The position numbers and the translations under genes are program-made. Under the pieces are notes generated by a model. The model had not been told where the DNA came from. It did not search any database and saw nothing but the letters and a program-made list of their open reading frames with translations. A stretch of DNA of 64,000 nucleotides from Enterobacter phage vB_Ecl_SABI, in sequence record PQ864023.1; one strand, given 5' to 3'. Of the stretch, positions 57,679 to 58,176 are shown in pieces (within the stretch, counting starts at the first letter, position 1; each line of letters begins with the position of its first letter).

Positions 57679-57715
57679 AGTTATATCTCCAGTAATGAAT
57701 AGGAATCTCATTACA

Positions 57716-57728
57716 TACGCTATGCGTA
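57716..57728 (-). promoter_or_regulatory. hairpin TACGC-TAT-GCGTA (5-bp stem, 3-nt loop), RYGC-TAT-GCRY family
   Basis: 38 nt upstream of the corrected start at 57678; flanked by the TAATGA…TCATTA inverted repeat at 57692-57712. Confidence 0.35.
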
Positions 57729-57821
57729 GATATAACTATCTACCGTTCGTAACACTACGGTACTACGTACCTACGTGTTACTCACTGGTTATAGATAGGA
57801 TACCCATACTTATATACATAG

Positions 57822-57935
57822 TGTTTATAAGGTTATAGGTATATGTAAGGTAGTAGTATAGATAGTATATAGGGTAGGTATAGGTATAGAGATAGTAGTT
57901 GATAAGGTAGAGGTAAACAAAGTTAAGTAGTACAT
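57822..57935. repeat. C-free purine/T-rich degenerate repeat tract (GGTA/TAGG/ATAG units) within a 460-bp noncoding region
   Basis: About 115 nt of plus strand with essentially no C, made of reiterated GGTATAG/GTAGTA/TAGATAG units. Flanked by dense short inverted repeats (57700-57800) and three tandem TTGTGTAR repeats (58119-58143). Confidence 0.6.
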
Positions 57936-58134
57936 ACTGGAGTATATGTATCCTATTCTCTGTCAACCCTTTTGACTAACTCATTTTTTCGATAAGTGTT
58001 ATGAATAAAATCGATAGATGAGTATCTGTATATGAATTCTGACCGTCATACCTAGCGCGAGTAAATTGCCATAAGTTTTGAACCTGCTTAGCGCACCTTA
58101 CTGTCATAGGTTGATTGTGTAGTTGTGTAATTGT

Positions 58135-58171
58135 GTAGAAAAGAATAAGCCCCATCCCGAAGGATGAGGCT
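58135..58171 (-). terminator. rho-independent terminator
   Basis: Minus-strand RNA: AGCCUCAUCC-UUCG-GGAUGGGGCU (one G-U pair) followed by UAUUCUUUUCUAC. Confidence 0.6.
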
Positions 58172-58176
58172 GATGC

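What the first reader, a model, noticed from the sequence alone, without database searches (positions are those of the whole stretch)
57712..58176. 460-bp noncoding region with a ~115-nt C-free purine/T repeat tract, dense short inverted repeats and tandem TTGTGTAR repeats
Between two early-type genes lies the longest noncoding stretch of the window. It contains:
- TAATGA-(9)-TCATTA, GATA-TAAC-TATC, ACCGT-(10)-ACGGT and ACGTA-CC-TACGT inverted repeats at 57692-57800.
- A strongly strand-asymmetric tract at 57822-57935 with virtually no C, made of reiterated GGTA/TAGG/ATAG/GTAGTA units.
- A GTCAA-CCCTT-TTGAC hairpin at 57962-57976.
- Three tandem TTGTGTAG/TTGTGTAA/TTGTGTAG repeats at 58119-58143.

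Its position about 1.4 kb from the terminase genes, together with this sequence character, suggests a replication origin, a packaging/terminal-repeat boundary or a binding array for a host or phage protein (G-free on the transcribed strand).
Basis: seen in the sequence. Interest (0 to 1): 0.68.

Follow-up and report, generated by a model that had tools for sequence, protein, structure and literature searches.

The report
Terminal-repeat boundary tract, N4-like phage
This stretch is where an N4-like phage's roughly 660-bp terminal repeat ends and its first unique early promoters begin; the odd C-free tract is a conserved boundary array, comparable to the short repeats next to phage T7's terminal repeat, and probably marks where the right genome end is cut.

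Summary
The + strand has an exact 100-nt C-free run (57818-57917). About 5e-6 such runs are expected by chance, and the next longest base-free run in the window is 46 nt. The three 8-mers and all listed inverted repeats are present.

The window is a collapsed assembly of a Cbunavirus-like Schitoviridae (N4-like) phage, with early genes on the minus strand. By homology with CB1, CB4 and Possum, 58594 to about 57926 is a single collapsed copy of the direct terminal repeat (DTR).

The noncoding region (really 57679-58176) contains, in order:
- the gene-01 terminator
- a TACACAA array
- conserved DTR blocks
- the inner DTR boundary
- the G-free (sense strand) tract
- a 33-nt hairpin supported by covariation
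- an N4-type hairpin promoter with leader hairpin and RBS

The tract is present in all 13 relatives (100-181 nt, 1-5 G). It starts where annotated DTRs end and reiterates the word spanning the left-end cut (ACT|TACTAC). Similar G-poor tracts follow mapped DTR ends in LUZ7, LIT1 and Paxi, and T7's repeat array lies in the same position.

Best reading: a DTR-boundary, right-end cutting array. The function is inferred, not shown.

The parts
58595..58662 (-). Conserved AT-rich flank just outside the left genome end (AACTTTTT..TTTTTT..TAGGTACGGTAGC). Candidate recognition sequence for the precise left-end cut.
   Evidence: Conserved in six Cbunavirus relatives and in Erwinia phage MIF8, although it is noncoding. 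Close relatives L019-L021 diverge from the window upstream of GCACTACT.
57926..58594 (-). Inferred direct terminal repeat (DTR), present once because the assembly is collapsed. Length about 662-669 bp.
   Evidence: CB1 record position 1 aligns to 58594, and the CB1/CB4 annotated DTR ends (647/648) align to about 57931. There is only one copy in the window. The terS/terL genes lie next to the early genes, which is possible only in a collapsed or permuted assembly.
58593..58600 (-). ACTACTTA word spanning the inferred left-end cut (ACTACT|TA).
   Evidence: Four of the five copies of this 8-mer in 128 kb lie within 57924-58891. Direct copies sit at both DTR boundaries.
58559..58564 (-). C6 run about 30 nt from the left end.
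   Evidence: A C6-C9 run lies about 29-41 nt from record position 1 in N4, G7C, LUZ7, LIT1, Paxi and CB1. MIF8 has a comparable run in the homologous left-end region of its circular record.
58496..58525 (-). CTTACACAA followed by the GGCC-ATA-GGCC hairpin. Candidate early promoter P1 for gene 01, inside the DTR.
   Evidence: Invariant in relatives. It is the hairpin listed as Porf1_1 in Table S4 of the CB1 paper. N4 and G7C also have TTACAC directly upstream of their P1 hairpin.
58177..58449 (-). Gene 01, a 90-aa small membrane-type protein encoded within the DTR. Start is the ATG at 58449, preceded by GGAG.
   Evidence: phrog_16196, E = 1e-37. Homologous to CB1_01 inside CB1's annotated DTR.
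58148..58171 (-). Intrinsic terminator of gene 01: a 10-bp stem with a TTCG loop, followed by TATTCTTTTC.
   Evidence: Conserved, with compensatory stem changes, in relatives.
58115..58138 (-).
   Evidence: Conserved in all relatives, with four copies in MIF8. The same word sits upstream of the P1 hairpin at 58517-58525.
58040..58105 (-). Conserved noncoding DTR blocks: GACAGTAAGGTGCGCTA and the 26-nt block TTTACTCGCGCTAGGTATGACGGTCA, invariant in the seven-genome alignment. Candidate terminase or end-binding site.
   Evidence: The 26-nt block is invariant in the window and six Cbunavirus genomes. Its last 20 nt are invariant across the 11 genomes. L020 and L021 differ from it by one and a few bases respectively. 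It is partly conserved in MIF8. The overlapping 59-aa ORF is not conserved.
57961..57966 (-). Invariant TTGACA hexamer with no -10 partner.
   Evidence: Invariant in all relatives. The promoter scan finds no sigma-70-type site here.
57962..57976 (+). GTCAA-CCCTT-TTGAC hairpin.
   Evidence: Present in the window and its closest relatives only. Absent from the CB1, EK8 and Kc283 groups, so it is probably incidental.
57924..57932 (-). Inner DTR boundary word TACTACTTA, repeating the first bases of the genome.
   Evidence: In CB1 and CB4 the annotated DTR ends (647/648) are followed, after one base, by TACTAC at 649/650.
57818..57935 (-). G-free (minus strand) and C-free (plus strand) TpA-rich tract. 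The side nearest the DTR is a length-variable TACTAC/TACTTAC zone.
   Evidence: All 13 relatives have a tract of 100-181 nt with 1-5 G. It is the least stable duplex in the 64 kb and in all 9 relative loci tested. Both strands fold at 0 kcal/mol.
57861..57915 (-). Conserved core of the tract, made of CCTATAC/CCTATCT/ACTATC-type units and including TATACCTATACCTACCCTATA.
   Evidence: Much better conserved than its flanks across the alignment. The 21-mer is invariant except at one Y position in 9 of 11 genomes, while EK8 and L013 differ in its last three bases; L020 and L021 carry one or two substitutions. The 21-mer is unique in the window and found only in this clade in IMG/VR.
57749..57781 (-). 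33-nt extended hairpin: GTAACAC-GTA-GGTAC-GTA-GTACC-GTA-GTGTTAC.
   Evidence: Folds at -8.2 kcal/mol. All 60 cells are paired, 6 pairs change on both sides, and 0 of 500 shuffles reach this. In relatives the inner hairpin is swapped for GTACC-GAA-GGTAC or GC-GTAA-GC. The inner hairpin is listed as Porf1_2 in the CB1 paper.
57716..57728 (-). TACGC-ATA-GCGTA hairpin. Most likely the N4-type vRNAP promoter of the first unique early gene.
   Evidence: It shares the downstream GTAATGAG(A/T)TCC with the N4-canonical hairpin AATGCAC-TCC-GTGCATT at 56143-56127. An equivalent C-ATA-G hairpin sits at the same place in all relatives.
57692..57714 (-).
   Evidence: Together with the promoter hairpin, z = -4.5. 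Relatives keep a hairpin here with different sequence.
57361..57690 (-). RBS GGAG (57690-57687) and the first unique early gene, starting at ATG 57678.
   Evidence: TTGGAGATATAACTATG is conserved in relatives. phrog_23646.

Best explanation
What the region is (confidence about 0.85). It is the junction between the single collapsed copy of a roughly 660-bp direct terminal repeat (DTR) and the unique early region of a Cbunavirus-like N4-type phage. Read on the minus strand, it runs in this order:
- left genome end at about 58594
- hairpin promoter P1, gene 01 and its terminator
- TACACAA x3 and conserved DTR blocks
- inner DTR boundary at about 57932-57926
- the G-free tract
- a 33-nt hairpin
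- a C-ATA-G hairpin promoter, leader hairpin, RBS and the first unique early gene

How the tract works (inferred, confidence about 0.45). It is the DTR-boundary array, the Schitoviridae counterpart of the short-repeat array (SRL) beside T7's terminal repeat.
- Its DTR-proximal part reiterates the word that spans the precise left-end cut (ACT|TACTAC).
- This would let the nuclease that makes the left end cut or nick again, at one or several positions, about 630-670 bp further in.
- That second cut would define the repeat and give the 'several right ends' reported for N4-like phages.
- The conserved, strand-asymmetric core behind it would be the cis site that positions or limits this event.

What is shown: the homology, the position at annotated or mapped DTR ends, the motif reiteration, the conservation and the composition. 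What is inferred: the cutting, and any protein binding.
For: Identity of the region:
- The closest records are Cbunavirus phages.
- CB1 position 1 aligns to 58594, and the CB1/CB4 DTR ends (647/648) align to about 57931.
- There is a single copy in the window, with terminase genes adjacent.
- A C-run about 30 nt from the end is shared with LUZ7 and LIT1, whose ends were mapped by run-off sequencing.
- Close relatives L019-L021 are near-identical only from GCACTACT|TACTAC through GGGTTGACAG.

Link between the tract and the boundary:
- In genomes without an inserted gene, the tract starts 626-663 nt from the left end. Annotated DTR lengths are 636-648.
- TACTAC recurs at the aligned boundary position in most of the 13 genomes and somewhere in the boundary zone in 12 of 13.
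- An 8-10-nt word spanning the left-end cut recurs in the boundary zone in 10 of 12 genomes. The implied DTR lengths are 630-641 for the CB1 group and 669 for the window.
- Four of five copies of ACTACTTA cluster here, with direct copies at both boundaries.
- The zone of variable length lies exactly at the boundary.
- The core is conserved and unique in the window.

Generality:
- In LUZ7 the genome-wide most G-poor and most negative-skew 100-nt window starts at 685. Its DTR end, 660, was mapped experimentally.
- In T7 it starts at 172, with the terminal repeat ending at 160.
- In LIT1 it is 668-767 after DTR 655, and in Paxi 610-709 after DTR 538.
- phiKMV has a short-repeat, A-depleted tract after its 414-bp DTR.

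Literature: N4-like phages have a unique left end, several right ends and repeats of variable length (PMC3896407; PMC3670811).
Against: - The physical ends of this phage were not mapped. The DTRs of CB1, CB4 and Possum were estimated from read depth, so the boundary is known only to within about 10-50 bp.
- The tract is low-complexity, so recurrence of TACTAC-type words is less surprising than in random sequence.
- In LUZ7, LIT1 and T7 I saw no obvious shared word between the left end and the sequence just beyond the DTR. I checked this by eye only. The 'same cut word' idea may therefore be specific to this clade.
- In N4 and G7C the DTR end has no comparable tract. In N4 it lies inside gp1.
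- No protein is known to bind the core.
- The function of the T7 array is itself unknown (from my own knowledge, not found in the library).
Confidence: 0.5

Rival explanations
1. Supercoil-sensitive unwinding element and SSB landing pad. When the left end enters the cell and gyrase supercoils it, the tract melts first. It stays open because neither strand can form G-C pairs. It then gives E. coli SSB access beside the hairpin promoters used by the virion RNA polymerase.
For: - It is the least stable 60- and 100-bp duplex in the whole 64-kb window: -1.07 kcal/mol per step against a mean of -1.37, sd 0.06.
- It is also the minimum in all 9 relative loci tested.
- Both strands fold at 0 kcal/mol.
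- It lies 15-35 nt from the covarying hairpin in 10 of 13 genomes.
- N4 early promoters need supercoiling and EcoSSB (PMC4496689).
Against: - The other candidate hairpin promoters (58506, 56143, 53579, 53214, 49259, 47752) have no such tract. The 53579 and 53214 hairpins abut coding sequence.
- The LUZ7 and LIT1 tracts are G-poor but C-rich, not AT-rich. No hairpin promoter was predicted next to them.
- Composition alone does not explain why the core is conserved at the sequence level.
Confidence: 0.2
2. Transcription-primed replication origin. The 33-nt hairpin carries its stable GNA loops on the sense strand. By the N4 rule that the GNA loop lies on the template strand, it would be a leftward promoter. 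It would copy the G-free template into a C-free, G-rich RNA that stays as an R-loop and primes DNA synthesis. This would resemble T7 promoter-plus-AT-rich origins or ColE1.
For: - GNA or GNNA loops closed by C:G are always on the minus (sense) strand in five structural variants, with compensatory stem changes.
- Extra GCGAAGC/GCGTAGC mini-hairpins are inserted in EK8 and CB4 on the same strand.
- The N4 rule is stated in PMC4496689.
- A leftward RNA would have a GC skew of about +0.9.
- The tract is the duplex-stability minimum.
- T7 has an annotated leftward promoter, A0, inside its repeat array.
Against: - The outer 7-bp stem would bury the expected start site, unlike N4 promoters.
- The -11 and -8 determinants do not match N4.
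- In LUZ7, Crick-strand genes are reported as transcribed only late.
- Cumulative GC skew is dominated by transcription direction and does not mark the site.
- No origin data for N4-like phages were found in the library.
Confidence: 0.1
3. Rho-loading (rut) insulator. Sense-strand RNA crossing the tract, whether readthrough from P1/gene 01 or from the right-end genes across a concatemer junction, is C-rich, G-free and unstructured. Rho loads on it and stops such transcripts before the early operon.
For: - The sense-strand tract is A37, C33, G1, T44 over 115 nt.
- It is unstructured and untranslated.
- It lies downstream of an intrinsic terminator.
- The LUZ7 and LIT1 tracts are 38-41% C and 4-5% G.
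Against: - rut sites are degenerate, whereas the core here is conserved in sequence.
- The reiterated end-like words and the tie to the DTR boundary are not explained.
- It is unknown whether Rho acts on vRNAP transcripts.
Confidence: 0.1
4. No function of its own. The tract is low-complexity DNA produced by slippage and end-repair at a recombination-prone repeat boundary.
For: - The number of TACTAC/TACTTAC units at the DTR-proximal edge is highly variable: the G-free run is 141 nt in EK8 and 167 nt in L013.
- The tract has no clean periodicity.
Against: - The roughly 55-nt core is much better conserved than its flanks across phages whose genes are only about 80% identical.
- G stays at or below 3% through many independent indels and substitutions.
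- Unrelated lineages have equivalent tracts at the same place.
Confidence: 0.1

Closest known systems
Phage T7 short-repeat array next to the left terminal repetition (SRL of Dunn and Studier 1983; the name and the 'function unknown' status are from my own knowledge)
   Same: - It lies directly after the left terminal repeat and before the first early promoters. The T7 repeat is 1-160, with CCTAAAG-type units at 175-332 and promoters phiOL at 405 and A1 at 498.
- It is the genome-wide extreme of G depletion and negative GC skew on the early-sense strand: the window starting at 172 has 8 G and a skew of -0.64.
- It is built of short reiterated units.
   Different: - There is no sequence similarity.
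- T7 units repeat regularly every 13 nt, whereas this tract has no single period.
- T7 keeps G in every unit, while here G is absent for 100 nt.
- I noticed no reiteration of the left-end word in the T7 array, but I did not search for it formally.
- This tract is followed by single-strand-type hairpin promoters rather than sigma-70 promoters.
Genome ends of coliphage N4 and N4-like phages (DTR with a unique left end and several right ends)
   Same: - The phage family, the gene order and the left-end C-run are the same.
- There is a first gene and a hairpin promoter inside the repeat.
- A repeat of variable length with several right termini is reported for N4-like phages (PMC3896407; PMC3670811).
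   Different: - In N4 the repeat (390-440 bp) ends inside gp1 and there is no base-free tract.
- Here the repeat is about 660 bp, ends in noncoding DNA and is followed by the tract.
N4 virion-RNA-polymerase hairpin promoters
   Same: - They have a 5-7-bp stem and a 3-nt loop upstream of early genes at the left end.
- The loop is closed by a C:G pair.
- The central purine and the -8 G lie on the template strand in TACGC-ATA-GCGTA.
   Different: - The loop is ATA/TAT rather than the GNA type, so -10 G is not met.
- The 33-nt hairpin has its GNA loops on the non-template strand and carries an extra outer stem.
G-poor tracts after the DTR in LUZ7, LIT1 (Migulavirinae) and Paxi (Pokkenvirus), and the short-repeat tract after the DTR of phiKMV
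   Same: They begin 13-70 nt after a DTR end that was mapped or predicted by PhageTerm. In LUZ7 the tract is the genome-wide minimum of G.
   Different: - They are C-rich rather than AT-rich.
- They contain 4-7 G per 100 nt rather than 0-1.
- phiKMV is depleted in A rather than G.
- They show no sequence homology beyond occasional CCCTAT(C/A) words.

Membership tests
Schitoviridae (N4-like) direct terminal repeat | Homology to a repeat annotated at both ends of a related linear genome | tested here: met
   CB1 1-647, CB4 1-648 and Horatius 1-636 align to window 58594 to about 57931. The right-end copy in CB1 is at 75395-76041.
Schitoviridae (N4-like) direct terminal repeat | Sequence physically present at both ends of the virion DNA (double read depth, read-start pile-ups) | not testable with these tools
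   No reads are available. There is only one copy in the window.
Schitoviridae (N4-like) direct terminal repeat | Conserved left-end signature (C-run about 30 nt from the end) | tested here: met
   The run is at 58564-58559. The same feature occurs in N4, G7C, LUZ7, LIT1, Paxi and CB1.
T7-type short-repeat array beside the terminal repeat | Starts directly at the inner edge of the left repeat, upstream of the first early promoters | tested here: met
   The tract starts at 57935-57932 and the inferred boundary is at 57932-57926. In T7 the array starts at 171 after the repeat end at 160.
T7-type short-repeat array beside the terminal repeat | Regular tandem reiteration of one short unit | tested here: not met
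   There is no dominant period and TRF scores are only 37-38. T7 units are spaced 13 nt apart.
T7-type short-repeat array beside the terminal repeat | Extreme strand asymmetry (C over G on the early-sense strand) | tested here: met
   GC skew is -0.94 here and -0.59 to -0.64 in T7, where it is the genome-wide extreme.
N4-type vRNAP hairpin promoter (57728-57716) | 5-7-bp stem, 3-nt loop, C:G closing pair, purine at the loop centre and G at -8 on the template strand | tested here: met
   The sequence is TACGC-ATA-GCGTA, so the template loop is TAT. The rules are taken from PMC4496689.
N4-type vRNAP hairpin promoter (57728-57716) | -10 G and a GNA loop on the template strand | tested here: not met
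   The template loop is 5'-TAT-3'.
N4-type vRNAP hairpin promoter (57728-57716) | Mapped transcription start about 11-14 nt from the loop centre | not testable with these tools
   No RNA data are available. The shared downstream GTAATGAG with the 56143 hairpin is indirect support.
Replication origin (unwinding element plus initiator sites) | Most easily melted duplex of the genome | tested here: met
Replication origin (unwinding element plus initiator sites) | Skew inflection or mapped initiation at the site | tested here: inconclusive
   The cumulative GC-skew minimum is at 56891, but skew follows transcription direction.
Rho utilisation site | At least 70-80 nt of C-rich, G-poor, unstructured, untranslated RNA | tested here: met
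   C 29% and G 1%. The fold is 0 kcal/mol as DNA. The overlapping ORFs are not conserved. Whether the tract is transcribed in the sense direction is unknown.
Intrinsic terminator (58171-58148) | GC-rich hairpin followed by a T-run directly after a stop codon | tested here: met
   Conserved with compensatory changes.

The most novel reading that the evidence does not exclude
The tract and the sense-strand GNA hairpin together form a leftward, single-strand-type promoter or priming signal. A phage polymerase would start at the hairpin and copy the G-free template into a C-free RNA, or extend a nick. This leftward synthesis across the repeat would duplicate the terminal repeat or start replication. 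If so, strand-asymmetric arrays beside terminal repeats would be one shared device of DTR podoviruses. That would cover T7, phiKMV, LUZ7 and the Cbunavirus-like phages, and it would give the T7 array a function.
Probability: 0.1. Interest if true: 0.75.

Novelty: new variant of a known kind. Interest (0 to 1): 0.55.

Why it matters
- How N4-like phages set the inner end of their terminal repeat, and why their right ends vary, is not understood.
- Here the DNA at that boundary is the most extreme sequence in the window. It is a 100-nt base-free run and the least stable duplex. It is conserved across a clade and repeats the word found at the left-end cut.
- The same position holds the genome-wide extreme of G depletion in LUZ7 and T7. 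This points to a shared feature of terminal-repeat podoviruses that none of the papers searched describes.
- It gives a concrete prediction. Read-terminus mapping should place the right ends on the TACTAC-type words, with more termini in phages that carry more copies, such as EK8 and L013.
- Practically, it shows that this assembly is collapsed and gives the coordinates at which the genome should be reopened.

Tried and rejected
- **Coding explanation rejected.** The 59-aa frame lacks a start codon in 8 of 11 relatives. The 62-aa ORF is an artefact of a strand that cannot encode TAG or TGA.
- **Sigma-70 promoter at the invariant TTGACA rejected.** There is no -10 partner, and the spacing to candidate -10 sequences differs between relatives.
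- **Known RNA family:** no Rfam match at E of 1 or less.
- **Regular tandem repeat or helical phasing:** no dominant period.
- **Origin from GC skew:** uninformative.
- **General promoter-flank feature:** other candidate hairpin promoters lack such a tract.
- **GTCAA-CCCTT-TTGAC hairpin as a conserved element:** not conserved outside the closest relatives.
- **Same cut word at both repeat boundaries as a family-wide rule:** not apparent on inspection of LUZ7, LIT1 or T7.
- **Literature on an N4 origin or the T7 array function:** nothing found in the searchable library.
- **LUZ7 transcription start table:** not held.
- **Second exact copy of GGTACGTAGTACC at 13856:** lies inside a gene and was not pursued.
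Full report
**1. The observation**

Window 57822-57935 (+ strand) has A43, T37, G32 and C2. The exact C-free run is 57818-57917, 100 nt. The next longest run lacking any one base in the 64 kb is 46 nt. With local composition, about 5e-6 runs of 100 nt or more are expected.

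The tract is a mosaic of reiterated short words rather than a clean tandem array.

The noncoding stretch is 57679-58176. The ATG at 57711 is a mechanical ORF start, and the conserved GGAG-N8-ATG start is at 57678. The two ORFs inside the region are not conserved genes. There is no Rfam hit.

**2. What the window is**

The nearest records are Cbunavirus phages (Schitoviridae, N4-like) at about 75-81% DNA identity: Pectobacterium CB1/CB3/CB4, phiA41, Nepra and Possum/Horatius, Kosakonia Kc283 and Escherichia EK8. Early genes lie on the window's minus strand. terL (60198-61808) and a gp69-like/terS gene (59521-60201) lie on the plus strand. Early genes can sit next to the terminase genes only if the linear genome was assembled as a circle, collapsing the direct terminal repeat (DTR) to one copy. 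The left-end sequence occurs once in the window.

**3. Locating the repeat**

- CB1's linear record starts TACTACTCTGGCTGT. This aligns to window 58594 on the minus strand.
- A C6 run follows about 30 nt later (58564-58559). The same feature occurs in CB1, N4, G7C, Paxi, and in LUZ7 and LIT1, whose ends were mapped by run-off sequencing.
- The annotated DTRs of CB1 (1-647), CB4 (1-648) and Horatius/Possum (636 bp) contain the gene-01 homologue. They end at a position that aligns to window 57931. These lengths came from read depth, so they carry some uncertainty.
- Close relatives from IMG/VR (L019-L021) are almost identical to the window from GCACTACT|TACTAC through GGGTTGACAG, and diverge on both sides.

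**4. Anatomy (minus strand)**

| Coordinates | Feature | Evidence |
|---|---|---|
| 58525-58496 | CTTACACAA plus GGCC-ATA-GGCC hairpin (P1 of the CB1 authors) | |
| 58449-58177 | gene 01 | |
| 58171-58148 | TTCG-loop terminator | |
| 58138-58115 | three YTACACAA units; four in Erwinia phage MIF8 | |
| 58105-58040 | conserved blocks, including a 26-mer invariant in the seven-genome alignment | |
| 57966-57961 | invariant TTGACA with no -10 partner | |
| 57932-57924 | boundary word TACTACTTA | |
| 57935-57818 | G-free tract | |
| 57781-57749 | 33-nt hairpin | |
| 57728-57716 | TACGC-ATA-GCGTA hairpin | |
| 57714-57692 | leader hairpin | |
| 57690-57687, 57678 | RBS and start codon | |

The 33-nt hairpin is strongly supported. 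All cells are paired, six pairs change on both sides, and 0 of 500 shuffles reach this. In relatives its inner hairpin is replaced by GTACC-GAA-GGTAC or GC-GTAA-GC. The GNA-type loops are always on the sense strand.

The ATA hairpin shares its downstream GTAATGAG(A/T)TCC with an N4-canonical hairpin at 56143-56127, AATGCAC-TCC-GTGCATT. I therefore read it as the promoter of the first unique early gene, following the N4 rules in PMC4496689.

**5. The tract in relatives**

- All 13 genomes of the clade carry a tract of 100-181 nt with 1-5 G, 70-74% A+T and about 25% TpA steps.
- The side nearest the DTR is a length-variable zone of TACTAC/TACTTAC units. The G-free run reaches 141 nt in EK8 and 167 nt in L013.
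- Behind it lies a core of about 55 nt (57915-57861) that is much better conserved than its flanks. Its 21-mer is unique in the window and was found only in this clade in IMG/VR.
- The tract is the least stable 60- and 100-bp duplex in the 64 kb: -1.07 kcal/mol per step against -1.37 +/- 0.06. It is also the minimum in all 9 relative loci tested.
- Both strands fold at 0 kcal/mol.

**6. The link to the repeat boundary**

- Where no extra gene is inserted, the tract begins 626-663 nt from the left end. Annotated DTR lengths are 636-648.
- The genome's first bases, TACTAC, recur at the aligned boundary position in most of the 13 genomes. In CB1 and CB4 they start two bases after the annotated repeat end.
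- An 8-10-nt word spanning the left-end cut (ACT|TACTA(CT)) recurs in the boundary zone in 10 of 12 genomes. The implied repeat lengths are 630-641 (CB1 group) and 669 (window).
- In the window, ACTACTTA occurs five times in 128 kb, and four copies lie within 57924-58891. Direct copies sit at both boundaries.
- N4-like phages are reported to have a unique left end and several right ends (PMC3896407; PMC3670811). An array of words resembling the left end at the inner boundary would give exactly that pattern.

**7. Beyond the clade**

| Phage | DTR end | Tract after the DTR |
|---|---|---|
| LUZ7 | 660 (run-off sequencing) | genome-wide most G-poor and most negative-skew 100-nt window starts at 685 (5 G; genome mean 26, sd 4) |
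| LIT1 | 655 | 4 G in 668-767 |
| Paxi | 538 (PhageTerm) | 7 G in 610-709 |
| T7 | 160 | genome-wide extreme starts at 172; CCTAAAG array at 175-332, spaced 13 nt, followed by phiOL and A1 |
| phiKMV | 414 | short-repeat, A-depleted tract |
| N4, G7C | 390-440; about 1160 | no clear tract |

The closest known thing is therefore the short-repeat array beside T7's terminal repetition. Its name (SRL) and its unknown function come from my own knowledge, and I found nothing on it in the library. The papers on this genus do not mention the tract.

**8. Mechanism**

I commit to the DTR-boundary reading. The tract marks where the repeat ends. Its DTR-proximal words are alternative sites for the nuclease that makes the left end. 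The conserved core is the cis site that positions or limits this event.

The position, conservation, motif reiteration and composition are shown. Cutting and binding are inferred. Confidence is about 0.85 that this is the DTR-to-early-region junction, and about 0.45 for this function of the tract.

Rival explanations are an unwinding and SSB-loading element for the adjacent hairpin promoters, a transcription-primed origin using the sense-strand GNA hairpin, a Rho-loading insulator, and functionless slippage DNA. Each is set out with its evidence in the rivals section.

**9. Limits**

- No reads, RNA data or experiments were available.
- The boundary is inferred by homology from depth-based annotations.
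- The low complexity of the tract inflates word matches.
- The cross-family comparison rests on a handful of genomes.

Noticed in passing
window 59416-59461 (+): This is the second longest base-free run in the window: 46 nt without G. It lies in the divergent intergenic region upstream of the gp69-like/terS gene (59521). Relatives have matching C-free runs in the equivalent place when read in the other orientation.
   Followed up: partly
window 13856-13868 (+): An exact second copy of the 13-mer GGTACGTAGTACC, the core of the 33-nt hairpin, lies inside ORF 13521..14057(-) on the opposite strand. About 0.002 such matches are expected by chance (my own estimate). It remains unexplained.
   Followed up: no
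window 56143-56127, 49259-49245, 47752-47736 (-); 53579-53563, 53214-53198 (-): Three hairpins have the N4-canonical form, with TCC on the sense strand and GGA on the template and 6-7-bp stems. Two further 7-bp hairpins have ATA loops. These are likely additional early or middle promoters. The 56143 hairpin shares the downstream GTAATGAG with the 57722 hairpin.
   Followed up: partly
window 57739-57728 vs 57688-57677: A 12-nt perfect complement links a segment upstream of the ATA promoter hairpin to the RBS and start codon of the first unique early gene. On transcripts that start further upstream it could mask the RBS. It is kept only in the window's closest relatives.
   Followed up: partly
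window 58662-58669 (+) and 58884-58891 (+): Two inverted copies of the boundary word ACTACTTA lie just outside the left end of the repeat, so four of the five copies in 128 kb fall within 1 kb.
   Followed up: no
window 58564-58559 (-); L004, L014, L015, L025, L027: A run of 6-9 C about 30 nt from the physical left end is shared by N4, G7C, LUZ7, LIT1, Paxi, CB1 and this phage. It is a conserved end signature across Schitoviridae genera.
   Followed up: partly
L015+L028+L026 (LUZ7), L029 (T7), L030 (phiKMV): In LUZ7 and T7 the genome-wide most G-poor and most negative GC-skew 100-nt window lies immediately inside the left terminal repeat. In phiKMV the genome-wide most A-poor window (582) and a GCCTTGCCTCT short-repeat zone lie shortly after the 414-bp repeat.
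   Followed up: partly
L007 (EK8), L016 (CB4), L020: Very stable mini-hairpin motifs (GCGAAGC, GCGTAGC, GCGTAAGC) are inserted or substituted between the tract and the promoter hairpin, always on the sense strand.
   Followed up: no
L019, L021, L007, L013 vs window 58172-58176: Some relatives carry an extra small gene between gene 01 and its terminator. This lengthens the distance from the left end to the tract to 740-887 nt and implies longer terminal repeats in those phages.
   Followed up: no
window 58467 vs 58449; 57711 vs 57678: The mechanical ORF starts of gene 01 and of the first unique early gene are upstream of the starts that are backed by an RBS and conserved in relatives.
   Followed up: yes
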